In this document: in pieces, positions 944 through 20,037 of the stretch
Numbering within the stretch: position 1 is the first letter of the stretch
Layout: the number at the start of each line of letters is the position of its first letter
Virus record (IMG/VR): IMGVR_UViG_2913167280_000003
Location: 1-64,000 of that record
Direction: 5' to 3' (one strand)
DNA length: 64,000 nucleotides
Source: a virus
Lineage: Duplodnaviria > Heunggongvirae > Uroviricota > Caudoviricetes
The notes under the pieces: model-generated
Database searches by the model: none
The model's input: the letters and a program-made list of their open reading frames with translations, nothing else
Told to the model about the DNA's origin: nothing
Position numbers and translations under genes: made by a program

Positions 944-2848
944 TTATGCGTATTGTTGGATGACGGCCATAACGTCCGCCACGTTGTGTTTTGTCTCAAT
1001 AATCCACCAGTTGCCCGGGAAATCGCTGTTCTTCGCCTTCGCTGGCAGCCAGCGAGCGCCGAATTTCGCCTTGATTGCGTCTTTAGCGCGGAAAAGAACG
1101 CCTTTCATGCCGGAGGCTTCCTGAAGCCCAAATACCTCGCCAGCGGCGAATTTTGGTGCGTACATCATCTTCAGGTCGGCGGTGGATACGCGATAATTCA
1201 GACCAAGAGACTGAGCTATGCTGGTGGCATCACCTTGTATTGATGATAACTCTTCTTGTTTCTCGTTTCTGGCGGCAATTTCTTCCTCCGTGATGTTGCC
1301 AAGGGCCAGGTTTATCCGATCAGCGTCTGCCTGTTTCTCTTCATCGGTGCGACCGGCAAGTGCCGTGTTAATTCTCTGCAATATCTCCGCATGATTCTTG
1401 CGCATGCTGAGCAATTCCGGCGTAACCTCGTTAAGGTCCACCAGCCCAAGGATGGCAAGGTCAGAAAACATTGATACCAGGTTGTAGGTCATGCGATAGC
1501 TGAGTTGGCCATAGGCTGATGGCAACTGCACCGAATCCATTTTATAGGCATCCATAAATTTAGAGCCTTCGTTTACGACATCCGCAATTGCAGGTGTGAT
1601 TTTCCCTGTGGTGATGGCCTCCCTGATTGCTGTTACCCACGATTGAGTCAGCGCGGCGACTGCATGATTCAGATTGGTTTTCCGTTCTGCTGCAATGCGC
1701 GCGCTTGCTGCGTCCATTGCCTGCTTGATCTCGTCTTTATTGCTGTAAATGCCAATGGTGCCAAACTGTGCTGTGGTGATCTCAAAATCTGACGCCCGGA
1801 ACTCATTGGTACCGAAAATGGCATTGGTGACCTCAAGTTCAGAATCCCCGTTACGGGTAGCCCCCTGGCTTGTTTTCTCCGGCATTCTGGCGATCGCATC
1901 CGCTATTTTCTCCTGAATTGCTTCAGGGGATAGCGTATCTCCGTATGACGCGATTACATCGCCATAATTGGAGCCAAACAGTTCAGTCAGGAATACTTCT
2001 GCCAAACGGACCTGGCGGTTATTCCCTTCCGACATCATACCAAGCACCCATTTAGCAATTGACGACTTCAGGGCGCCGTCACGGCGATCCGGATAAACCG
2101 CATGCTTCAGCGGGTCCGTATAGGTACCAACAAAATCAATGCTGTAGCCTGACTCTGTAGTCTGAACGCCGTATGAGTCAGTGATTTTGATCATGCCGCG
2201 CTGCTGGAAACGGTAGAAATCGTCACAGGAAATGATGTCGTTAATCCCGGCGATGGAGACGCCACCACTGATTTTCTGCATAACAGCATCTTCATCGGGA
2301 GTTACATCAACCTGTTTATCCAGCGTCTTCACATCCCAGTTACCCGATTTTGTGCCTTTGAAGGTAAAGATGATCTCCACGTCTGCGCGCTGGCTGTCGA
2401 AGTCCAGAGACTTAATGCGGACGATATCACCGGCACAATCGTAGTATTGGCCTACACGCCATGAGCGATCGCCGATAACAAGGAACTCACTCGCATGGTT
2501 AACCAGGTCAGGATCAACATCCAGAATGCCTTTATTTATTGCATCCTCCACCAGCGGGCGCAGGCGTTTGATATCCGTCGCGGCCTTCTGAGTACGGTTC
2601 AATAATTTCTCATAGCGGGAGATGGCTTGAGAGATATTAGCCTTGCGCTGAATGGCGCTTTTCAACGACGCGCGATACTGTGCTAACAACGTACGGTCTG
2701 TGTGATGGACGCTCCCCCAGCGGGCCTTCCAGTCTGCGTTATCAGCTGCTTTGGCCATTGCCGCCTGTTTGAATTTAGCTACCTCGGCGGTGGTCTTTTC
2801 AAGTTCCGCTTTGTTTCGCTCTAATTCAGCGGTAAGTACCCCCCACAT
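944..2848 (-). CDS. darB: DarB-like antirestriction protein, C-terminal segment (out of frame with the upstream segment)
   Basis: 634-aa ORF starting inside the last codons of the 1628-aa ORF; the two frames differ by one base at a 6-nt homopolymer (2839-2844). Combined length of about 2260 aa matches my recollection of P1 DarB. Confidence 0.55.
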   Translation of the reverse strand: MWGVLTAELERNKAELEKTTAEVAKFKQAAMAKAADNADWKARWGSVHHTDRTLLAQYRASLKSAIQRKANISQAISRYEKLLNRTQKAATDIKRLRPLVEDAINKGILDVDPDLVNHASEFLVIGDRSWRVGQYYDCAGDIVRIKSLDFDSQRADVEIIFTFKGTKSGNWDVKTLDKQVDVTPDEDAVMQKISGGVSIAGINDIISCDDFYRFQQRGMIKITDSYGVQTTESGYSIDFVGTYTDPLKHAVYPDRRDGALKSSIAKWVLGMMSEGNNRQVRLAEVFLTELFGSNYGDVIASYGDTLSPEAIQEKIADAIARMPEKTSQGATRNGDSELEVTNAIFGTNEFRASDFEITTAQFGTIGIYSNKDEIKQAMDAASARIAAERKTNLNHAVAALTQSWVTAIREAITTGKITPAIADVVNEGSKFMDAYKMDSVQLPSAYGQLSYRMTYNLVSMFSDLAILGLVDLNEVTPELLSMRKNHAEILQRINTALAGRTDEEKQADADRINLALGNITEEEIAARNEKQEELSSIQGDATSIAQSLGLNYRVSTADLKMMYAPKFAAGEVFGLQEASGMKGVLFRAKDAIKAKFGARWLPAKAKNSDFPGNWWIIETKHNVADVMAVIQQYA

Positions 2849-5800
2849 CCTCGCCAGCTGCGTGCTGCGCCTTGATGTAGTTCTGAAGGTCGATAGTAGC
2901 CTGTTCTTTCTGGCGAGCGCGTTGCGCTGCTTTCGCCTTATCCATTTGAACCTGCATCATAGCCAAACGTTCGCCGTCATCCTTAGCGGTATACATCTGC
3001 ATTTCGATCATGTCGTTGGCGTCGGCGTTCTCCATTTCTGACTTATCTGAACGGAGAATATCGGATATCCAACCAGCTTTACGTTTCAGTGTCTTCAGGC
3101 GGTATTCATCGAAAGAACCCTTGCCGCAGTAGTAGTGAACGCGAACGCTTGCACGGTTGGAGCCAACACGGGCGCCGCGACCGTTACGCTGTGCAATACT
3201 GGCTGGAGTCCACGGCAACGTCAGGTGGTGGATATCCGTCGTTCCTCGATGCAGGTTGATACCCACCTCTGCCTTTTTGTTGCAGATGATGATCGGGGTC
3301 CGGCCCTCCTGGAAGTCGGCAGCAATCTTTTCCAGCCCGCCCAGCGACATTTCATTTTGCTGCGCGATATAGGCGTCATACAGAGCCATTTGCTCGTTGT
3401 ATTTCGCTATCTGTGCATCTGTTGGTTCATCCGGTAGCTCTTTCGGAGGTTTAACCGCTTTCAGTTTCTTACCGGTTTTACCTGCCTCTGCAACCGTCTG
3501 AGCATTCAGGATCCCCACCTTTGAAGGTTCAAGGTTAAGAGCATTGCAGATAATGCGCTTGAGCTTCTGGTGCTGCGTTTTTTCATCGGTGAAGATGATT
3601 TGCTTACCTTCCGGGAAAAACTCCTTCAGCGTGGCAATCAGCTTCGCGTATTTGGGCGTAACGGGGTGAGTTACGGTCTGTTCGTCAATGCCAAACCTGG
3701 CCAGGCGCTTATTCACTTCCTGCTCGAACGCTTCCGGAACCTGCAACTGAATAAACTCGCCCTTATCTATCAGGGAGTATTGCGATTGTTGCGTGATTGA
3801 ATCATCACTGTCGTCGTCTTCGCTGGTGGCTTGTTTAGGCAAACTGTCCGCCAGCTGCTGCACCGCATCGGCGTACTCCGGCAGGAAACGATAGGTGATC
3901 CGGCGATAGTACAGGTCCATGTCAGTACATACGCGGTCCATATCCCTGATTATTGAGAAGATCGGACGGGCTTTCTCGTGCTCAATCACGCCGTCTTCAT
4001 TGACCGAGGTCGTTACGCCATTGTTGGCTTTGGCCGCCGCTTCCACCTGCTGACGCAATTCTTCATACGCCGCCAGTTGTTCTTCAGTAAGTGGTGCATC
4101 CTGCTGGTGCTCGTCCAGCTCCGGGATCTCCACGGTATCCTTAACGTCTTCCGCCGTTTTAAGCGTTGTCCACCGATGGAATATACCGCGCAGCGCATCA
4201 AGGTTTTCAAAGCCCACCAGCGCCATTTTTTCTTCAACTTCACCGCTTATTTTCTGTACCGCTTCCAGCCTGGTCTTGCCGAAGAATTTAACGAAGTCAT
4301 CAGGACCGTAGATCCCCATCTTCTGCCAGTATTCCTTCGGCAGAACATGAAAAAGCATGTTGTATGCATCGATCGGGGTGTTAACGACTGGCGTTGCAGT
4401 CAGGAGAACCGGTCCGCGCCCGCCATTCTTTTTCATCAGGTACGCGTTTTTGATTGCCATATCTCTCGCCGATTGCGCTACCGCGCTGGTGGGCAGATAG
4501 GCCAACTGTGACGCTTCGCGACCATTTTTATAGCTATTGCGGTAGTTGTGGCCTTCGTCGGCGATCACGCTGTCGAAGCCCATATCCTCAAAGTACGGAT
4601 ACTTCTCTGCTTTTTCGGTGCCGGTATCTGAATACTCCGACAATATCCGGCGGCGCGCCGCCTCTTTGCGATGGGAATCGGAATCCATTGCGCTGGCTAC
4701 GCGCCCGGCAGCAACGAAGTCATAAAGCATATCCTGTGCATGCTCATCTACGGTGTCATCGCGTAGCGGAATGCGGGCGTATTGTTCTTTGGTAAACACG
4801 ACTGCACGGTAATTTGAGTGCAGGATCGCGTTCATCCGCGCCGTGATAGTGGCTTCATCTGCCAGCTTAAGGGCATCGCGCATAAGTGGAGTGCCATCAG
4901 CATCAAGTACAGGTTTACCGTTCTCATCGAGCACCGGCGCCTGGCGAATCTGATCGCCGTCCATCAGTACATCCAGACCGACGAACAGGTAGTTACTGAA
5001 GGCTTCTTCACTCAGGAACTCTTTTGCTTCGTAATACCAGTTTTCCAGCACTGATTTAGGCACTACATAAGCAGTACGGGTGGAGCGACCGTTCTCATAG
5101 TTGAACGCCTCAAGCGCCAGCGCGGTCGTGGTTTTACCTATTCCAGTACCGAATCCCATAATGCCGCGCCCATCTTCGGACAGTCGGCGCACCTCGCTAT
5201 TCTGGTAATCAAATGGCTGTCGCTTACCGCTTAATCCCTTCAACCCAAGCGGATCGCCAGAATGTTCATACGGGATATTGCTATTGAAAACAGTGTTGTA
5301 TTTGGCAACCAGCTCATCGTAGCGATCATGCGTCTTGAGCCACTTATTGAACTGCTCCTCAAGCAGAGCCATCTGCTCGCGGTACCCGTTCGCCGTCGTG
5401 CTATCTTTGCCACCGATACGCGCACCATTGAGATACTTTTCCAGCTGTGCCGGGAACCCGGTCGCGTTTTCTCCTGATTTACGGTCCCACTCGTAGCGGA
5501 TCTCGCCTGTTTCTTTATCCTTGCGCTGGACGACACCGTATCGGTGCCCGACGAACAGACCATCACCACCGTGATAGGTGTCAGAAACCATTTCGTCGCC
5601 TTCCAGCTGCACTGACTGCACATAGCGCAGATCCGGATAGCCGTTTTCCTGCAAAAATTCCAGAATGACGGAACGGTCGAACCAACGGCTATTGAGCTTA
5701 AACCGGATATTCTCTGCTGGCGTCTTGATGCGCTTCTCTTCGATCGCTGCCAGCTGATTAAGGACGTTGTTCTTTACTGGACCGTCGGGGAGTGTGGCAA

Positions 5801-7712
5801 GGAATTCCTGTTTTGGAGCCACTATCTCGTTAATGTCGCCGCTGGTGGCGCGGGCGAACGGAACAATCCCGCCATACGGTGAAACCGCAATACCAGGGGT
5901 GCTGGCCAATAAATTAAGCAACTCTTCATCACTGGCTGGCAGTTCGCCGGTAAACGCAAGGCGGAAATCATCGAGCTGGATTGGATCGCGGGTAAGATCG
6001 CTATAGAGATAACGCAGGGTGTCCTGATAGCTGGTGGAGTCATAACTGGCGCTGGAATCATGCGTGACCAGCTTTCCTGTCAGCTCGTCAGAAATAGTGC
6101 CATCCAGCTTAATTGCACCACGGAAAGCAAACCAGGCGCGCGCACCGCTTCCCGATAATTTAGCTATCGGACCGCGACCGGGGTTACCAAAACGGTCAAT
6201 CTCTGCCTGCAAACGGGATACCAGAGAAAGGCGCTGCTGTTCGATTTGTTCAGCACTATGCCCGGCGGCCTTCATATCCTGATATTCAATTAACATCCGG
6301 CCAATCATCGCCCCGCGATACAAGCGTTCACGGTATTTTTCAGGCTGGCTGTTAATCCAGTCCACCAGCTGTACCATATCGTCGCTGATTGATGTGGTGT
6401 ACTTATCGCGGACATTTGCCATCTGGGTAAATGTCATGCCGAGACGGCCTTCAGTGGTAGTCAGGTTACGCTGAAGAGCCTCCCAGCTATCCGCGCCATA
6501 ACTGGCAACATCAATCTTCAGCTCCTTCCCGGCATCAGCTTCAATCCAGCGACCACCAGCATATTTTTGCCATACGCCATTAATCAGGCGCATTTCCCCT
6601 TCATCAACAACGTCTGCGGTCGGTGACGGTTCAGCCATATCAAGCAAAGACCAGTCGATACGGCTTTCGAAACGATGAATCAGCTTCGCTTTAAGAGCCT
6701 GGTTATCAATCTGCCCGTCGGCACGAACCTCAATACGCCCCTGGAATCCCTTCTCCTGGGTGCCATGAATAAACCGGCGGCCGTCCTTTTCAAACCACTT
6801 GCCAGAAATAAACGTTGGCCAAAGCACATTTGCCGATTCAAGAGTACCTTCATCCACCAGGGGGATTTTCTCAGCCATCTCCGCCGGATGTTTGCGCATC
6901 AGCACCACGTCAACGACTGTACTGGTCCCGTTTGCGTCAAAAGTACCGGTAGGCAAGCGGTGAGCGCCAAGAAATTCAGCTTTACGGGATAGGCGCAGGC
7001 GTAACCGCTTCATGTTTGAACCTGAAACAATGGACGGCGGCACAATCACACACATGAATCCGCCTGGCTTTATCTTGTCCAGCATGCGGAGCATGAAGTA
7101 AGAACCCATGTCCGTTTCTTCTGCGTAAGGCTTATCGATGTTGCGTGTGTTATCACGCCCGCCGAACGGAACGTTACCCACAACATGGTCGAATGAATCG
7201 TTAGGCGTGCTTACAGCCAGCTGTTCGAACGGGGAAATCTGTACGCTGTCTTCCGGATGCAACAGCTGGTTTATACGACCGGAAACACTGCTGATCTCAG
7301 TCGCAGTCATCACTGTACCAACCGGTTTTGTCTCATTAAAAACACCGGTTCCCGCGGAAGGTTCCAGGGTGTTACCTACGTCCGCGCCATAGAGCTTCAT
7401 GATCTCCCAGACGCCTTCAGCGATAGGTTTTGGTGTGTAATATTCGGAGACGGACCCGCCAATGCCGCCTTCACCGGTGTACCCAGCCAGGATCTGGCGC
7501 TGTTCATCTGTCAGTGTCGTGCCGTCCACCAGCGAATTAAGCAAATCTATCGCCTTCTGATTCGCCTCCCGGCGCAGTCGGTCATAGCTTTTGCCTTCCA
7601 CCTTTTCCACGCCGTATCTAATCGGCGCTCGATGAGATGTTATTGCCCTAATGTATTTCAATATTTCGCTGACACTTGAACAGCGAAAAACCCCCATAGA
7701 TAGCTTGTTCAT
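2826..7712 (-). CDS. darB: DarB-like antirestriction protein, N-terminal segment (N6-adenine methyltransferase-like and SF2 helicase-like domains)
   Basis: 1628-aa ORF. SAM-binding-like motif LEPSAGTGVF, NVPFGG (NPPY-like), Walker A GFGTGIGKTT and DEGH box. Confidence 0.75.
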   Translation of the reverse strand: MNKLSMGVFRCSSVSEILKYIRAITSHRAPIRYGVEKVEGKSYDRLRREANQKAIDLLNSLVDGTTLTDEQRQILAGYTGEGGIGGSVSEYYTPKPIAEGVWEIMKLYGADVGNTLEPSAGTGVFNETKPVGTVMTATEISSVSGRINQLLHPEDSVQISPFEQLAVSTPNDSFDHVVGNVPFGGRDNTRNIDKPYAEETDMGSYFMLRMLDKIKPGGFMCVIVPPSIVSGSNMKRLRLRLSRKAEFLGAHRLPTGTFDANGTSTVVDVVLMRKHPAEMAEKIPLVDEGTLESANVLWPTFISGKWFEKDGRRFIHGTQEKGFQGRIEVRADGQIDNQALKAKLIHRFESRIDWSLLDMAEPSPTADVVDEGEMRLINGVWQKYAGGRWIEADAGKELKIDVASYGADSWEALQRNLTTTEGRLGMTFTQMANVRDKYTTSISDDMVQLVDWINSQPEKYRERLYRGAMIGRMLIEYQDMKAAGHSAEQIEQQRLSLVSRLQAEIDRFGNPGRGPIAKLSGSGARAWFAFRGAIKLDGTISDELTGKLVTHDSSASYDSTSYQDTLRYLYSDLTRDPIQLDDFRLAFTGELPASDEELLNLLASTPGIAVSPYGGIVPFARATSGDINEIVAPKQEFLATLPDGPVKNNVLNQLAAIEEKRIKTPAENIRFKLNSRWFDRSVILEFLQENGYPDLRYVQSVQLEGDEMVSDTYHGGDGLFVGHRYGVVQRKDKETGEIRYEWDRKSGENATGFPAQLEKYLNGARIGGKDSTTANGYREQMALLEEQFNKWLKTHDRYDELVAKYNTVFNSNIPYEHSGDPLGLKGLSGKRQPFDYQNSEVRRLSEDGRGIMGFGTGIGKTTTALALEAFNYENGRSTRTAYVVPKSVLENWYYEAKEFLSEEAFSNYLFVGLDVLMDGDQIRQAPVLDENGKPVLDADGTPLMRDALKLADEATITARMNAILHSNYRAVVFTKEQYARIPLRDDTVDEHAQDMLYDFVAAGRVASAMDSDSHRKEAARRRILSEYSDTGTEKAEKYPYFEDMGFDSVIADEGHNYRNSYKNGREASQLAYLPTSAVAQSARDMAIKNAYLMKKNGGRGPVLLTATPVVNTPIDAYNMLFHVLPKEYWQKMGIYGPDDFVKFFGKTRLEAVQKISGEVEEKMALVGFENLDALRGIFHRWTTLKTAEDVKDTVEIPELDEHQQDAPLTEEQLAAYEELRQQVEAAAKANNGVTTSVNEDGVIEHEKARPIFSIIRDMDRVCTDMDLYYRRITYRFLPEYADAVQQLADSLPKQATSEDDDSDDSITQQSQYSLIDKGEFIQLQVPEAFEQEVNKRLARFGIDEQTVTHPVTPKYAKLIATLKEFFPEGKQIIFTDEKTQHQKLKRIICNALNLEPSKVGILNAQTVAEAGKTGKKLKAVKPPKELPDEPTDAQIAKYNEQMALYDAYIAQQNEMSLGGLEKIAADFQEGRTPIIICNKKAEVGINLHRGTTDIHHLTLPWTPASIAQRNGRGARVGSNRASVRVHYYCGKGSFDEYRLKTLKRKAGWISDILRSDKSEMENADANDMIEMQMYTAKDDGERLAMMQVQMDKAKAAQRARQKEQATIDLQNYIKAQHAAGEDVGGTYR

Positions 7713-12017: not shown

Positions 12018-12291
12018 GAGTTGACTTGTGAGCCATGTGTAAAAAACGACTGAAAGAAAACACCACGGAAGAGGTGGAAAGTGATTAATTTTTACTAGAA
12101 TAAAAAGGGGCCCCAGAGAGCGCCCTGATAATACGAAATTAAAGGGAAATAAATTACAAGAAGTGTAATTCTTTGCCCTCTGAATATGCAATCATGGTTA
12201 GACAAGCAAGATAGGGCGAATTAAAATTAATCAATAGTCACTTTGTTAAGATGCGCAACATCGCTTTAACATTTTATGCTTGTCATGATAT

Positions 12292-12912
12292 TTGCCTGGA
12301 AGCCTCATGAATACATATTCTGATAAAATACACAACCTTATAGATATAGCCAAATTAGCTGTGGCCATGAGGGAACATAGCTATTTTTTCGCACTTCGTC
12401 GAGGAATAGATGTTAATTTTTGTGCTGATTTAAACGGGAGTGGTACACAAGGGATATTCATAAGAAAAAAAAGTTTTAACGCGTATGAGCCAAGTTTTAT
12501 TGAAGTAATTTTTGAACCCACTCATAAAAACGATGATTCATTTCTATACGAAGAGGACCTTACTACCGATCAACGAAAAGACTACGAACCTAGTATTAAC
12601 AGAGGAAAACATCGATTCGTTGCCCAACGTGCTAAACTAAATCTCGACTGGGACAGTAATGAAATCCAACAATGGCGTTTGGATATTGAGCGACTTTCTA
12701 AACCACACAACACTCTTAATGACTGGTTAGAAAATGATTCAGAGATAATGATAATACATCTCTGCGGCGGTTATAGGTTCCGTGAACCAGTGATACTTTC
12801 TCAAAGAGACATTAAACAATATGTAGCTTCAGGATTGACTCTGGAAGACTTAAAAAATCGGCTAAAGTGCTCAATATGTGGTGAGCGAAACGCCAAAATT
12901 AAAGTTTTTTGA
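12292..12912 (+). CDS. Hypothetical protein, low-GC orphan gene
   Basis: 206-aa ORF in a markedly AT-rich segment between ssb and the end of the dar operon; no recognisable motif. Followed by a 10-bp-stem hairpin (12931-12960). Confidence 0.5.
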   Translation: MPGSLMNTYSDKIHNLIDIAKLAVAMREHSYFFALRRGIDVNFCADLNGSGTQGIFIRKKSFNAYEPSFIEVIFEPTHKNDDSFLYEEDLTTDQRKDYEPSINRGKHRFVAQRAKLNLDWDSNEIQQWRLDIERLSKPHNTLNDWLENDSEIMIIHLCGGYRFREPVILSQRDIKQYVASGLTLEDLKNRLKCSICGERNAKIKVF

Positions 12913-13023
12913 TCTACTTTAGTTGGAAATGGCTTGCTTCCATAACCTAAAGCAAGCCACTACACATTTACCTTAAGCACACGATAACATGCCAGAACAG
13001 GTTATTTTTGCACTATCAGGGAG

Positions 13024-13332
13024 TTAATATACTATCTGGTCTACATGATCACCAAAATCATCGTCGTCGTCCTCATCGCCACCATCTACAGATGGCCAAT
13101 CAACAAACCAGCCAGCGTAAAGATGCAGCGTTCGGAGAACATCACTTGCGGGAGAATCAAGGGTGTTAACGAATCCCATATAGCTATTGGGATTTGCCCC
13201 AGCTATGGCTTCAGCGATCATGTCCTCGGTAATGTCACCGGAGATAATGCTTAAACGCCCGGAAACTTCTTCATTATCATCAAACTCGACAATGGCATTC
13301 CCGCCTAATGGCGCTGCGATTTTAATCTGCAT
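13024..13332 (-). CDS. Small highly acidic protein at the 3' end of the dar operon
   Basis: 102-aa ORF whose start overlaps the ddrB stop; C-terminus DGGDEDDDDDFGDHVDQIVY. Confidence 0.45.
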   Translation of the reverse strand: MQIKIAAPLGGNAIVEFDDNEEVSGRLSIISGDITEDMIAEAIAGANPNSYMGFVNTLDSPASDVLRTLHLYAGWFVDWPSVDGGDEDDDDDFGDHVDQIVY

Positions 13333-16309
13333 TATTTAGCTCCTTTGCCACACCTAATAACAGTTCCAGCAATCCGTCACCATTCATCAGTGATGCGGCA
13401 GCGGCCTCTTTGTCATGATACAACTGAAGAGCCATAGAGAATACTTCCGTTGCTGACGTTTTGGAAATTGTCGGAGATTTTTGTCGAAATTTACCAGAAT
13501 TACTCACTGAGACAGGCGGGTATACCTTCGCCATATAAATATCACTCAATCGAGATCTGAAGCACCATTCAGGCTTGCCACGCCCACCGATATTAACGAA
13601 AGATGGCTTATCCCCTTCAACATTGGCCTTCAGGAATGACCTGGCTTTCTCTAACAAACCCGGGTTACTGTACTCGAGATGATGACCCAGCTCGTGCCAC
13701 AGTGCACTTGCATTTTCATCGTTCAAATTGACAGCAACAACACCATTTAGATTTGCATATGCCCTTCCCTGGTGGTGAACCACCTTTGATAAGGTCAATA
13801 TTTTCCCGCCGGTCAGGCGGTAAATATCAGCAAGTTCCTTGCGCAGGTCTATCCCTCCATTCTGTCCAGCGCGGGCTTCTTCCACTTTTTCCGTGATAAA
13901 AGAGTCGGCCCACTCAAGAGCTTTTTCTTCAGATACGGATGAGTTGGTGATCGCACTGTTCATGACAGATAACACTTTCTCGTGGATCGAATCCATACTT
14001 CGCTGATTCATTTGCCAGCGTGTCTGCGGGTTATATGAGAATCGCTTAAGTAGTTGGTCAAGATGCTCAAGTTCTTCTTCGCTGACATACTTTTTAGCCT
14101 CACCAATAATGCCGGGGAGAATATTGCCGTTAGGATTAAACGCTCGCGAAAGGAAGAGTTTCAGCGCCCCCATGCCCTCCGATGCTTCAATATCACCAAT
14201 AACCCGGTTAACAATGGCCGCACTCTTCGGATTAGCATCCGCCAACGCCCTGGCTACGATTTGCAGGGACGATACGACCTCACGCTGCATATCCGTCCTG
14301 ATCCCATCAATAAACTCTGGCGTTATGCCGTGCTCTTTAAGAATATCCCGGCCTTCCGCCGTTACCCCATCGATATCCCCGAGATGTTTATTAACCCGAC
14401 TTTGCAATGCCTTAAATGCCTTCAGAATTCCACGGGCATCATCCGCTTTACTAACGGCCTTCCTGAATGCTGGCAAGAGGTCTGAGTTAACCTCATTTTG
14501 TTGATCGGCCCACTGAATGGAGGCTTCTTTCATCTCGTCCAGAGTCAGATCACCCAACGCGGTATGGTCTGTGAATATGAGCGACAACCTCTGAACCATT
14601 TCTGACAATGGTGATGCCGAATGCGCCGCGCTAAGGAAGGCTTTCACCCTGGTTGGGCGAATGGAAAACCAGTCAATAGCTGGTGGCATATCTCCGTTTT
14701 GTATCGCCTGCGCTATCTCATCAAAGCCGTCGCGCCCAAGGGAGGATGCGTGATTTAACAATCCGCGAAGTAACGAATTACTGATACCGAATAATCGGCA
14801 CCATTTTTTCACGTCGGCAACAGGCATTCGGACAAAATGCGCAAGCACTTGTACAAGCTGCTCATCCTGGGGATCGGTGCGGGATAGCAGCCTGATCAGA
14901 TGAATAATGTCTTTGATACCGGATGCCCGATGTAATAGCAAGCTGGTATATGGAGCAACACCGTTGTAACTACCGTCGGAAGCTGACTCGAAAAGACCGC
15001 CGGATATCCCTTGCATGCCTTCGTTTTCCAGTTCCTGAGACACCTGGCGAAGGATATCCTGTAACGACACATCACCACCGCCAAACATATCCCCCAGCGC
15101 CTGGCCCTGGTGCTGTAACTCATCATTGATACGTTGCGCCATCAACTTAAAGGCGGTGGCCATACGCTTCGCGCTACGGTTATTCGCGACGATGAACAAC
15201 GCGAGTGCTTTCACTTCCGGGGCCGTTTCGCTGAACATATCCCCCTGAGCAATAACATCGGTAATATGCTGGCCTGACTCCTTCGATTGCCTTACCAGGT
15301 CTACCGCATCTTTCAATGCCGCCAGCGCCTTTTTATCGAGGCTATCCGCTGTTTCAATGCCATCAACGATAGTTGTCACAGCCTGCTTGTGCGCTTCTCC
15401 TGATAAAGCCTGCATCTGGACAAAATCATTGGCTGCCGCATTAAGCGCCGTCAGAACATTACGCATATCCGGATCAGGTTCTTCTGCAACCATCCTTACC
15501 AGGCGCGCATCCTTATATGCCTTGGCAAAGATCGCGTTTTGTATCCGGTCAACAAGTTGCCGTGTTGGTCGCCCATCTTCCGTTACAAGGCCAGCAGCCT
15601 GTGTGGCACCAACTTGCGTCATGAATCCGCGAATAAACGCGTCATTACTGCGGCTAAGCAGATCCCCGCTTTCTGACGGGTTAAACAGCGCCATCATCGC
15701 CGGAGTTATGCTGTCGGCATCAACAAAAGCCTTTTCACTGGCTGCCATTTCCTGGAGATCAGAAATATTTGAGTCCTTGGCAAACTGAACTCGGTCAACC
15801 TTCGTCAACCGGCGGCGCACCAGTACCGGAGCCGTCATTAATTCAACCTTTTCAGGGCGTATGCCGAATTCGGTCGCATGTTCAATCAGGTACTCCCGAT
15901 ACCGATCCGCATTACCGTCCTGATAGGCTTTAATGATCCCCATGGTCCGCCCATTACCTGACTCAACGGCATTGTCCTCACCAATTATCGGTGCGCCATG
16001 GCTGGATAAACCGGAATCGGTAAGCTGGGCAGGACGCAAATCCTTGGATATCTGGTTAACCTGAAGAAGGCTGGATGCGCGGGTCCGGTCGCGCGGCTGA
16101 AGTTCCTGGGGATAGTCTGGATTAATTTTCCCATCCAGAGTATTGGATACCAAAAGAGCTGAGGCATCGACGATATCAAACGCCGTTTTTACCTCGTCTC
16201 CCTTCGCTGTCACCACATACGAAACCCGCCCGTAATCGGGCAGGTTCTTTAGCAGCTCGATCAGCGTTTCTATGCTGGTGGCCATAACCACCTGATCGCT
16301 TAAGCTCAT
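13322..16309 (-). CDS. ddrB: DdrB-like large virion-associated protein with HEXXH motif
   Basis: 995-aa ORF last in the hdf-darA-ddrA-ddrB order; contains WHELGHHLEY (zinc-metallopeptidase-like HEXXH). Name by synteny. Confidence 0.55.
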   Translation of the reverse strand: MSLSDQVVMATSIETLIELLKNLPDYGRVSYVVTAKGDEVKTAFDIVDASALLVSNTLDGKINPDYPQELQPRDRTRASSLLQVNQISKDLRPAQLTDSGLSSHGAPIIGEDNAVESGNGRTMGIIKAYQDGNADRYREYLIEHATEFGIRPEKVELMTAPVLVRRRLTKVDRVQFAKDSNISDLQEMAASEKAFVDADSITPAMMALFNPSESGDLLSRSNDAFIRGFMTQVGATQAAGLVTEDGRPTRQLVDRIQNAIFAKAYKDARLVRMVAEEPDPDMRNVLTALNAAANDFVQMQALSGEAHKQAVTTIVDGIETADSLDKKALAALKDAVDLVRQSKESGQHITDVIAQGDMFSETAPEVKALALFIVANNRSAKRMATAFKLMAQRINDELQHQGQALGDMFGGGDVSLQDILRQVSQELENEGMQGISGGLFESASDGSYNGVAPYTSLLLHRASGIKDIIHLIRLLSRTDPQDEQLVQVLAHFVRMPVADVKKWCRLFGISNSLLRGLLNHASSLGRDGFDEIAQAIQNGDMPPAIDWFSIRPTRVKAFLSAAHSASPLSEMVQRLSLIFTDHTALGDLTLDEMKEASIQWADQQNEVNSDLLPAFRKAVSKADDARGILKAFKALQSRVNKHLGDIDGVTAEGRDILKEHGITPEFIDGIRTDMQREVVSSLQIVARALADANPKSAAIVNRVIGDIEASEGMGALKLFLSRAFNPNGNILPGIIGEAKKYVSEEELEHLDQLLKRFSYNPQTRWQMNQRSMDSIHEKVLSVMNSAITNSSVSEEKALEWADSFITEKVEEARAGQNGGIDLRKELADIYRLTGGKILTLSKVVHHQGRAYANLNGVVAVNLNDENASALWHELGHHLEYSNPGLLEKARSFLKANVEGDKPSFVNIGGRGKPEWCFRSRLSDIYMAKVYPPVSVSNSGKFRQKSPTISKTSATEVFSMALQLYHDKEAAAASLMNGDGLLELLLGVAKELNNAD

Positions 16310-19963: not shown

Positions 19964-20037
19964 AAGTTCCCTCCTACGTTGTCAGGAGGTAATGGTATGC
20001 AAAGTAACTTCTCAACCGGTCATGTTGCATAAGAGGC

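What the first reader, a model, noticed from the sequence alone, without database searches (positions are those of the whole stretch)
13024..13332. Strongly acidic 102-aa protein translationally coupled to the end of the Dar antirestriction operon
The ORF start overlaps the ddrB stop and the product ends in DGGDEDDDDDFGDHVDQIVY. Small, very acidic proteins in antirestriction contexts are often DNA mimics (Ocr/ArdA-like logic), so this could be an extra antirestriction component co-packaged with Dar proteins. The inference rests on composition and position only.
Basis: inference. Interest (0 to 1): 0.45.

Follow-up and report, generated by a model that had tools for sequence, protein, structure and literature searches.

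The report
P1 hxr: acidic partner of DdrB
The flagged ORF is the long-catalogued but uncharacterised phage P1 gene hxr, the last gene of the Dar antirestriction operon; comparative data show it is not the repressor it is annotated as, and that it is kept or lost together with the peptidase-bearing C-terminal half of DdrB, whereas the DNA-mimic idea has only its negative charge in its favour.

Summary
Window 13024-13332 (minus strand) encodes a 102-aa protein with net charge -19 and pI 4.05. Its ATG overlaps the ddrB stop by 11 nt and has its own AAGGAG Shine-Dalgarno.

It is 95% identical to P1 Hxr (ORFVIII of the darA operon, known since 1998). It is annotated "possible repressor, homolog of Xre", which I could not support: there is no HTH and the protein is acidic.

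AlphaFold gives a confident 80-aa alpha/beta core plus a disordered acidic tail of about 22 aa. No fold match was found in PDB or BFVD, and none to Ocr or ArdA.

The family occurs only in P1-like phage-plasmids. In 87/87 Hxr-bearing loci it overlaps the ddrB 3' end. Every DdrB carrying the C-terminal HExxH module (about 14 lineages) has such an acidic ORF. All 37 loci whose DdrB lacks that module (36 truncated after the N-module, one a deletion-fusion) also lack it, and neither part was ever found alone.

Best reading (about 0.4, inferred): a cognate binding partner, immunity- or chaperone-like, of DdrB's peptidase module. The DNA-mimic antirestriction reading (about 0.17) is not excluded, but it rests on charge alone. 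The gene is known; its function is open and cheaply testable.

The parts
13024..13332 (-). hxr CDS (102 aa plus TAA stop); ortholog of P1 Hxr / darA-operon ORFVIII
   Evidence: ORF list; 95% identity to P1 YP_006490; PHROG 2292 E 3e-58
13093..13332 (-). Codons 1-80: folded alpha/beta core (strands 2-6, 12-16, 28-32; helices 36-44, 62-71), ending in the family-conserved GW.V.WP motif
   Evidence: AF2 with a 21-sequence alignment: block pLDDT 82-90 except the P1-type insertion at residues about 20-27. Conserved G32, G53, L66, L69, G74, W79, P80
13027..13092 (-). Codons 81-102: disordered polyacidic tail SVDGGDEDDDDDFGDHVDQIVY (net -10, no K/R) with a hydrophobic C-terminal tip
   Evidence: pLDDT below 50 for residues 83-87 and 93-102. 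Tail net charge -5 to -14 (-8 to -14 in the terminal, full-length tails) with zero K/R in all 21 aligned sequences. The poly-D length varies from 4 to 9 and is always in frame in 80 loci
13340..13345 (-). Shine-Dalgarno AAGGAG, 7 nt before the hxr ATG, inside ddrB
   Evidence: A GGAG-type SD is conserved at this position in most homologous loci
13322..13332 (-). 11-nt overlap of the hxr start with the ddrB end (ATGCAGATTAA)
   Evidence: Overlaps of 1-17 nt are seen in all lineages examined
12928..12961 (-). Stem-loop ending the darA operon (13-bp stem GUGGCUUGCUUUA...), also facing the convergent isaB gene
   Evidence: RNA fold of 12925-13023(-): -30.9 kcal/mol, z -3.2. It falls inside the interval annotated as terminator in AJ000741. 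Strong GC hairpin plus T-run terminators follow hxr in all diverged loci. The simple terminator scan did not call it because the T-run is weak
13322..16309 (-). ddrB (995 aa), the gene hxr is coupled to
   Evidence: Pfam ddrB-ParB E 1.6e-39 at residues 36-167; P1 annotation
13673..13696 (-). DdrB residues 872-879, HELGHHLE: zincin-type HExxH(+E) motif of the C-terminal peptidase module
   Evidence: H, E, G, H, E are invariant in 10 lineages at 23-46% identity. MPTase assignment for P1 DdrB from Iyer et al. 2017, PMC5512222. Pfam itself gives only weak M66/Reprolysin hits
19970..20008 (-). P1-type late promoter of the darA operon (upstream of lydA), from which hxr would be transcribed
   Evidence: 83-bp blastn match at 96% identity spanning the AJ000741 promoter feature 1017-1055, which carries a '-22 signal' plus -10

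Best explanation
The ORF is the ortholog of phage P1 hxr (ORFVIII), the last gene of the late-transcribed darA operon (lydA-lydB-hdf-darA-ddrA-ddrB-hxr).

Its product is a small protein with an approximately 80-aa alpha/beta core of no recognisable fold. A disordered polyacidic tail of about 22 aa follows, ending in a conserved hydrophobic tip (..IVY, or ..IVN in relatives).

Proposed mechanism: Hxr is made together with DdrB from overlapping cistrons and is the cognate binding partner of DdrB's C-terminal module, the variable middle region plus the zincin-like HExxH peptidase domain. The relationship would resemble that of an immunity protein or dedicated chaperone to an effector domain. In this model the core docks on the module and the acidic tail with its C-terminal tip occupies a basic or active-site groove. 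That would keep the peptidase silent or correctly timed in the producing cell until DdrB is processed (108 to 76 kDa) and loaded into the procapsid.

Shown: gene identity, operon position, overlap, predicted protein architecture, restricted phyletic distribution, and all-or-none co-inheritance with the DdrB C-module.

Inferred: physical binding, the inhibitory or escort role, and the part played by the tail.
For: 1. Identity and operon. 97.5% DNA and 95% protein identity to P1 hxr. AJ000741 lists it as ORFVIII, followed by the operon terminator. The late promoter is conserved in the window.

2. Linkage. In 87/87 loci with an Hxr homologue (80 IMG/VR plus 7 from metagenomes and SRA assemblies), the hxr start overlaps the ddrB 3' end. 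DdrB identity in those loci runs as low as about 30-45%.

3. Long-form DdrB. In 12 diverged lineages with a long DdrB, an overlapping (1-14 nt) ORF of 96-127 aa with net charge -10 to -22 always follows. Most have a GGAG-type SD. Profile-profile comparison joins the divergent ones to the Hxr family (hhalign 86%, E 5e-6).

4. All-or-none pattern. Thirty-six loci in which DdrB stops just after its N-module (395-505 aa stop-to-stop, no HExxH), and L138, have no Hxr-like ORF.
- L141/L142 lack DdrB residues about 210-450 of the N-module, keep the HExxH module and keep Hxr.
- In L100 versus L101 (97% identical flanks) the replaced block is exactly the C-module plus hxr, ending 6 nt after the hxr stop.
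- In L138 an internal deletion fuses the N-module to the last ~20 codons of the hxr-like ORF.
- No locus has the C-module without hxr, although hxr borders a cargo-insertion hotspot and would be hit first by deletions from that side.

5. PLSDB counts. 504 plasmids match Hxr and 512 match the DdrB C-terminal 230 aa; in the at-least-90% identity band the counts are 482 and 481.

6. Selection on the tail. Charge is conserved while sequence is not. There is no K/R in 21 tails, and the slippage-prone poly-D tract is always in frame. C-terminal tips are conserved within sub-lineages: EEIN, GVSF/GVCF, ELVEY, IVN.

7. Context from the literature. DdrB carries a C-terminal MPTase and is processed to 76 kDa before packaging (PMC5512222). 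A metalloprotease domain is required for ArdC antirestriction (PMC7213743).
Against:
- hxr and the C-module are physically adjacent, so joint loss can follow from single deletions. The number of truly independent events is small: at least 2-3 are clear.
- DdrB is itself acidic overall (net -24) and its C-terminal 230 aa are near neutral (pI 5.2-9.3 across lineages). There is no obvious bulk charge complementarity.
- The peptidase assignment is not recovered by Pfam at significance, and my single-sequence model of the domain was unusable (pLDDT 40).
- CRISPRi knock-down of hxr gives no plating defect (EOP 1.6; PMC10695390). Any toxicity of unpartnered DdrB would therefore have to be limited to Dar function.
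- In some lineages (L097, L100) the tail is only weakly acidic.
Confidence: 0.4

Rival explanations
1. DNA-mimic antirestriction or antinuclease protein. Hxr's negative surface or tail would imitate DNA and titrate a type I R-M enzyme, or another DNA-binding defence protein. It would act either after being packaged and injected with the Dar proteins or late in the producing cell.
For: - Net charge -19 and pI 4.05, the most acidic ORF in the window.
- Acidity is conserved across all lineages, including very divergent ones (net -10 to -22).
- It is encoded in an operon whose other products are antirestriction proteins.
- Virion proteomics cannot exclude packaging: trypsin with a two-peptide cutoff, and only three K/R in Hxr.
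Against: - No match to Ocr, ArdA or any other family.
- About half the net charge is in a disordered tail.
- The conserved core residues are hydrophobic or structural.
- Expression would be from a late promoter. No internal promoter is annotated in P1 or found in the scan, so it cannot act on incoming DNA unless packaged, which is unshown.
- It is never found apart from the DdrB C-module and never retained when that module is lost, which is unexpected for a self-sufficient trans-acting inhibitor.
- The family is confined to P1-like elements. From my own knowledge, not tested here, Ocr- and ArdA-type mimics are spread across many kinds of mobile element.
Confidence: 0.17
2. Polyanionic assembly helper. 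Hxr would act as a DNA surrogate or placeholder for the positively charged, DNA-facing surfaces of the Dar proteins (DarA-Hdf) or the procapsid interior. This would aid ordered loading of DdrB, DarB and Ulx before DNA packaging, after which it is displaced.
For: - Late co-expression with head-internal Dar proteins.
- DarA-Hdf have a positively charged DNA-facing surface (PMC12810830).
- Dar proteins load in a fixed order.
- The disordered acidic tail.
- Not detected in mature virions.
Against: - It predicts linkage to darA/hdf rather than specifically to the DdrB C-module, yet short-DdrB elements keep hdf-darA-ddrA and lose hxr.
- There is no direct evidence.
- hxr is non-essential.
Confidence: 0.12
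3. Xre-like transcriptional repressor, as in the GenBank/RefSeq annotation of P1 ('possible repressor; homolog of Xre', based on 28% identity over residues 23-80).
For: Only the legacy annotation.
Against: - No HTH_3 or any other Pfam or NCBIfam hit, even at E up to 1.
- pI 4.05 with only 3 basic residues.
- The AF2 model is beta-beta-beta-alpha-alpha with the two helices 17 residues apart, with no helix-turn-helix.
- No HTH protein among the structural neighbours.
- It is the last cistron of a late structural and antirestriction operon.
Confidence: 0.02

Closest known systems
Phage P1 Hxr (P1_gp021, YP_006490; ORFVIII of the darA operon, AJ000741); PHROG 2292
   Same: 95% amino-acid identity, same length, same 11-nt overlap with ddrB, same downstream terminator and convergent isaB.
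   Different: A few substitutions (D12N, I15V, A60S, V/A82S). The window's element lacks IS1 and isaA nearby. Function has never been determined for either.
Effector-immunity / toxin-immunity gene pairs (colicin-Im, barnase-barstar, polymorphic and MuF-type phage toxins with a downstream immunity gene)
   Same: A small, acidic protein is encoded immediately downstream of, and overlapping, the gene for a large delivered multi-domain protein with a C-terminal enzymatic module. The small gene and the C-terminal module are inherited or lost as one cassette.
   Different: No demonstrated toxicity of the DdrB module, no demonstrated binding, and no sequence or fold relation to any known immunity family. 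This is an analogy recalled from general knowledge, not a tested membership.
DNA-mimic antirestriction proteins Ocr (T7 gp0.3) and ArdA
   Same: Small size, strongly negative net charge, antirestriction genomic context.
   Different: No sequence or fold similarity. Much of the charge lies in a disordered tail. Expression is late rather than immediate-early or leading-region. The distribution is restricted to P1-like elements, in obligate linkage to ddrB.
ArdC (R388) and other MPTase-bearing polyvalent proteins
   Same: DdrB, Hxr's partner gene, belongs to this class: a delivered antirestriction protein with a C-terminal zincin-like peptidase (PMC5512222; PMC7213743).
   Different: As far as I found, no Hxr-like accessory gene has been described for ArdC-type proteins. 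Hxr homologues were found only next to P1-type DdrB.
Acidic C-terminal tails with a hydrophobic tip (E. coli/P1 SSB ...DDDIPF, T7 gp2.5)
   Same: A disordered acidic segment ending in hydrophobic residues and the free carboxylate, a typical protein-docking peptide. P1's own SSB, encoded 1 kb away, ends ...FEDDIPF.
   Different: The tip motif is I-V-Y/N (or EIN, VSF), not IPF. The tail is attached to an unrelated non-OB core. The resemblance is one of logic only.

Membership tests
P1 Hxr / PHROG 2292 (darA-operon ORFVIII) | Full-length sequence similarity to P1 Hxr | tested here: met
   95% identity over 102 aa; PHROG 2292 E 3.2e-58 covering 1-102
P1 Hxr / PHROG 2292 (darA-operon ORFVIII) | Position: last cistron of the darA operon, overlapping the ddrB stop, followed by the terminator | tested here: met
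   same arrangement in 87/87 loci
Xre / HTH_3 phage repressors | Helix-turn-helix DNA-binding domain detectable by profile | tested here: not met
Xre / HTH_3 phage repressors | Composition compatible with DNA binding, and a regulatory genomic position | tested here: not met
   pI 4.05, 3 K/R against 22 D/E; terminal gene of a late operon
Ocr / ArdA-type DNA mimics | Membership of the Ocr or ArdA sequence families | tested here: not met
   No Pfam, PHROG-annotated or PADLOC match
Ocr / ArdA-type DNA mimics | Rigid elongated fold displaying DNA-like arrays of carboxylates | tested here: not met
Ocr / ArdA-type DNA mimics | High net negative charge | tested here: met
   Net -19; family range -10 to -22
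Ocr / ArdA-type DNA mimics | Binds and inhibits type I R-M enzymes; alleviates restriction in vivo | not testable with these tools
   Requires restriction-alleviation and binding assays
Ocr / ArdA-type DNA mimics | Present in the recipient cell at the time of DNA entry (early expression or virion delivery) | tested here: inconclusive
   Late operon with no internal promoter found. Not in the virion proteome, but the assay was insensitive for this protein
Effector-immunity / dedicated-chaperone pair | Small gene immediately downstream of, and overlapping, the effector gene | tested here: met
   Overlap of 1-17 nt in all lineages
Effector-immunity / dedicated-chaperone pair | Co-inheritance of the small gene with the specific effector module (cassette behaviour) | tested here: met
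   The C-terminal HExxH module and hxr are both present or both absent in about 50 diverged loci. Cassette boundaries were mapped in L100/L101 and L138/L139. Caveat: adjacency makes joint deletion easy
Effector-immunity / dedicated-chaperone pair | Direct binding and neutralisation or stabilisation of the effector | not testable with these tools
SSB-Ct-like docking tail | Acidic tail ending in the D-D-D-I-P-F type tip | tested here: not met
   Tips are IVY, IVN, EIN, VSF, VEY; none is IPF

The most novel reading that the evidence does not exclude
Hxr is an overlooked seventh component of the P1 Dar system. It would be a new-fold protein whose disordered polyacidic tail and C-terminal tip gate the zincin peptidase module of the virion-delivered DdrB. 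That would make it a toxin-immunity-like pair embedded in a phage antirestriction machine. It would explain how DdrB processing is timed, and why the module and hxr travel as one cassette.
Probability: 0.3. Interest if true: 0.55.

Novelty: already known. Interest (0 to 1): 0.33.

Why it matters
The Dar system of P1 protects any DNA packaged in a P1 head from type I restriction and from the BREX-type StySA system. How it does so is still unknown after nearly 40 years.

Published models count six proteins and leave out hxr, which sits in the same operon and carries a probably wrong 'repressor' label in every P1-like genome and phage-plasmid. It matches about 500 plasmids in PLSDB, among them P1/P7-like plasmids; mcr-1 has been reported on a P7-like plasmid that carries hxr (PMC5786510).

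If Hxr is the partner of DdrB's peptidase module, that would give a handle on what the peptidase does and when. The practical gain now is a corrected annotation and a cheap, well-defined experiment.

Tried and rejected
- **Xre homology** (the P1 annotation). Rejected: no HTH by profile or model.

- **Exhaustive phmmer**. The hits P0019, P0023, P0025 (FG-GAP/VCBS-like repeats matching 'GDITEDMIAEAIAGA') and P0026 (repeat protein) are spurious low-complexity or repeat matches.

- **Loci matching only Hxr residues 1-82**. I suspected frameshifted tails. Translation showed all 80 ORFs intact; the truncation came from BLAST's treatment of the poly-D run. Only the rare cluster representative P0005 carries a frameshifted tail.

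- **Single-sequence AF2 of the DdrB C-terminal 256 aa.** pLDDT 39.9, unusable; no fold search was run on it.

- **afdb50 fold library.** Unavailable.

- **Profile of the DdrB C-module against PDB and Pfam.** Nothing significant. The peptidase call therefore rests on the invariant HExGH(H)xE motif and on Iyer et al. 2017.

- **Papers not held.** Piya et al. 2017 and Iida et al. 1998. I could not check whether ORFVIII/hxr mutants were ever phenotyped.

- **Co-loss as proof of function.** Tempered, because L100 versus L101 shows the block is replaced by cargo at a hotspot bordering hxr. What remains informative is that hxr is never lost alone and that truncations always stop at the module boundary.

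- **Simple charge complementarity with DdrB.** Rejected: DdrB is itself acidic.

- **SSB-tail mimicry.** Rejected on the tip motif.

- **SD sequestration enforcing coupling.** Not seen.

Full report
**1. Observation**

The ORF exists as described, on the minus strand at 13024..13332 (ATG to TAA, 102 aa). Its sequence ends DGGDEDDDDDFGDHVDQIVY.

The ATG lies 11 nt inside the 3' end of a 995-aa ORF (13322..16309, minus). That ORF is DdrB: Pfam ddrB-ParB at E 1.6e-39 and annotated ddrB in P1. A consensus AAGGAG sits 7 nt upstream of the ATG.

The protein has 22 D/E and 3 K/R, net charge about -19 and pI 4.05. Its acidity exceeds the 99th percentile of all 100 ATG ORFs of at least 80 aa in six frames of the window.

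The predicted mRNA fold leaves the SD and ATG unpaired. 'Translational coupling' is therefore inferred from the overlap alone.

**2. Identity**

The region is 97.5% identical in DNA to phage P1. The ORF is P1 hxr (P1_gp021), with 95% protein identity.

In the 1998 darA-operon record AJ000741 it is ORFVIII, the last of eight ORFs, followed by an annotated terminator. The matching stem-loop in the window is at 12928-12961; the 99-nt region 12925-13023 containing it folds at -30.9 kcal/mol, z -3.2. The operon's P1-type late promoter is conserved at 19970-20008.

So the object is a catalogued gene. What is not known is its function.
- RefSeq says 'possible repressor; homolog of Xre', on 28% identity over residues 23-80.
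- A genome-wide CRISPRi screen scored it non-essential, EOP 1.6 (PMC10695390).
- I found no paper in the library that studies it.
- Piya 2017 and Iida 1998 are not held.

**3. The protein**

No Pfam, NCBIfam, PADLOC or PDB-sequence match was found, even at permissive thresholds. The only hit is PHROG 2292, of unknown function.

An exhaustive phmmer over 1.84 billion representatives found only 19 hits. The genuine ones are about 100-aa proteins at 35-57% identity. Two profile searches added a few dozen clusters. Wherever a long contig was on record it was about 80-95 kb, and the named sources are Escherichia, Klebsiella, Citrobacter, Salmonella, Serratia, Yersinia and Rosenbergiella. PLSDB has 504 matching plasmids.

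AlphaFold2 with a 21-sequence alignment gives mean pLDDT 76.8.
- Residues 1-82 form a confident core (blocks at 82-90). The exception is the P1-type insertion at residues about 20-27.
- The core has strands 2-6, 12-16 and 28-32 and helices 36-44 and 62-71.
- Residues 83-102 are disordered, with pLDDT below 50.

Family conservation falls on G32, G53, V55, N56, L66, L69, G74, W79 and P80, which are structural residues. The tail is conserved only in character:
- net -5 to -14 (-8 to -14 in the terminal, full-length tails), with no K/R in any of 21 sequences;
- a poly-D run of 4-9 residues that is always in frame in 80 IMG/VR loci, despite being slippage-prone;
- a C-terminal tip conserved within sub-lineages: IVY, IVN, EEIN, GVSF, ELVEY.

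**4. Context across relatives**

- In 87/87 loci carrying an Hxr homologue, its start overlaps the ddrB 3' end. DdrB identity in those loci runs as low as about 30-45%.
- Searching from the DdrB side gives the reverse view. Every DdrB with the C-terminal module bearing the invariant H-E-x-G-H-(H)-x-E motif is followed by an overlapping (1-14 nt) ORF of 96-127 aa with net charge -10 to -22. This holds for 12 lineages analysed in detail plus L136 and L142.
- Those too diverged for HMMER (Serratia L091, Rosenbergiella L097, L100/L106, L135, L139, L141) share the same architecture. As a group they align to the Hxr profile (hhalign 86%, E 5e-6).
- Thirty-six loci have a DdrB that stops a few residues after its conserved N-module (395-505 aa stop-to-stop, no HExxH). 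These come from Pantoea-, Enterobacter- and Erwinia-type P1-like elements, and none has an Hxr-like ORF.
- L141/L142 lack much of the N-module, keep the HExxH module and keep Hxr.

**5. How much the co-loss means**

L100 (long) and L101 (short) are 97% identical on both sides. The block that differs in L100 runs from the end of the N-module to 6 nt past the hxr stop. In L101 it is replaced by 3.9 kb of cargo: an MFS transporter, a hydrolase and a LysR regulator.

The short forms are followed by 26 different downstream sequence clusters. The window itself shows an empty IS1 site about 850 bp downstream of hxr, beyond isaB. hxr therefore borders an insertion and deletion hotspot, and joint loss with the adjacent ddrB 3' half can be a single event. 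On its own it does not prove functional linkage.

Three things remain informative:
- hxr is never missing when the C-module is intact, although deletions from the hotspot would remove it first.
- Truncations always stop at the module boundary, never inside the C-module.
- An independent internal deletion (L138 versus L139) again removed the C-module together with the body of the hxr-like ORF. It fused the N-module to the last ~20 codons of that ORF.

This all-or-none pattern is what an effector-immunity or effector-chaperone pair predicts. A self-sufficient trans-acting inhibitor does not predict it.

**6. Mechanism**

According to Iyer et al. 2017, DdrB combines an N-terminal ParB-like domain with a C-terminal zincin-like peptidase (MPTase). 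It is processed to about 76 kDa before packaging, probably autocatalytically (PMC5512222). A related peptidase domain is required for ArdC antirestriction (PMC7213743).

I propose that Hxr binds the DdrB C-module stoichiometrically. It would restrain or escort that module in the producing cell, with the tail and tip acting as a docking or pseudo-substrate peptide. My confidence that Hxr is functionally tied to the C-module is about 0.55. My confidence in the specific inhibitor or chaperone role is about 0.4.

Weak points:
- There is no interaction evidence.
- The peptidase domain is not recovered by Pfam or PDB profiles.
- My single-sequence model of it failed.
- DdrB is itself acidic, so there is no bulk charge complementarity.
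- hxr knock-down has no plating phenotype.

**7. The DNA-mimic reading**

It is not excluded. Acidity is the one property conserved across the whole family, and the published virion proteome could not have seen Hxr: it used trypsin with a cutoff of at least 2 unique peptides, and Hxr has only K4, R26 and R67.

There is, however, no positive evidence. Against it:
- expression from a late operon;
- about half the net charge in a disordered tail;
- an orphan compact fold;
- confinement to P1-like elements;
- obligate linkage to one module of DdrB.

I give it about 0.17. A polyanionic assembly-placeholder role is suggested by the positively charged DNA-facing surface of DarA-Hdf and gets about 0.12. 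The repressor reading gets about 0.02.

**8. Verdict**

The object is the known gene hxr, so novelty is 'already known'.

The analysis adds three things:
- the legacy repressor annotation is unsupported;
- the protein is a new-fold core with a selected acidic tail;
- it behaves as a cassette with DdrB's peptidase module.

Interest is moderate (0.33). This is a cheap, well-posed experiment on an overlooked member of a classic, mechanistically unsolved antirestriction system, but nothing yet shows a surprising activity.

Noticed in passing
window 944-7712 (minus), indel near 2839: darB is split into two ORFs (2826..7712, 1628 aa; 944..2848, 634 aa) by a 1-nt insertion in a C-run (CCCCCC versus CCTCC in P1 OP279344). 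This is either a darB pseudogene or a homopolymer sequencing error.
   Followed up: partly
window 12050-12182 and 12174-13400: Relative to P1, the element lacks IS1 and most of isaA. Window 12050-12182 matches P1 22493-22625 and window 12174-13400 matches P1 23394-24620. The 9-bp overlap (12174-12182) appears to be a single copy of the IS1 target duplication, i.e. an empty IS1 site.
   Followed up: partly
L003 8001-8555; proteins P0014, P0040: Some P1-like elements carry a tandemly duplicated Hxr in one 184-187 aa ORF. The first copy has a shortened acidic tail (..WPGWDDEEDLI) and the second a full tail.
   Followed up: no
L093-L096, L101-L134 (short-form ddrB loci); L101 6354-10216: In Pantoea-, Enterobacter- and Erwinia-type P1-like elements DdrB ends a few residues after its N-module. 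Hypervariable cargo follows directly: 26 different downstream sequence clusters in 37 loci. In L101 the cargo is an MFS transporter, an alpha/beta hydrolase and a LysR regulator. This marks an integration hotspot at the module boundary.
   Followed up: partly
L138 about 6260-6320 versus L139 7421-7804: The L138 DdrB ends with ...DGGALPRRVVNHYELLARMQ, which matches the C-terminus of the hxr-like ORF of L139 (...DGVVPRRVAEHYELLGRLEQ). A deletion has fused the DdrB N-module to the last ~20 codons of that ORF.
   Followed up: partly
L007 4886-5326: A HicB-like antitoxin gene on the opposite strand is inserted between ddrA and ddrB in one diverged P1-like element. ddrB-hxr stay overlapped there.
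   Followed up: no
window 13048-13074 (poly-D codons of hxr); L009-L088: The GAT/GAC run encoding the poly-D tract varies from 4 to 9 Asp among 80 near-identical P1-like loci and is always in frame. Two variant tails (..EEVFSDETVNQLLY and ..EEGFSDETVNQLLY) also occur.
   Followed up: yes
window 12292-12912 (+): isaB (206 aa) is convergent with hxr and shares the intergenic stem-loop. It has no Pfam or NCBIfam family, only PHROG 30162 of unknown function, and ends in a CSICGE.. motif.
   Followed up: no
L098 2294-9037; L140: Very large polyvalent proteins carry a DdrB-like N-terminal region at 36% identity: at least 2247 aa in a Desulfobacterales MAG contig, and at least 2029 aa in an IMG/VR contig. 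Both ORFs run off the fetched loci, so their downstream genes could not be checked for Hxr-like partners.
   Followed up: no
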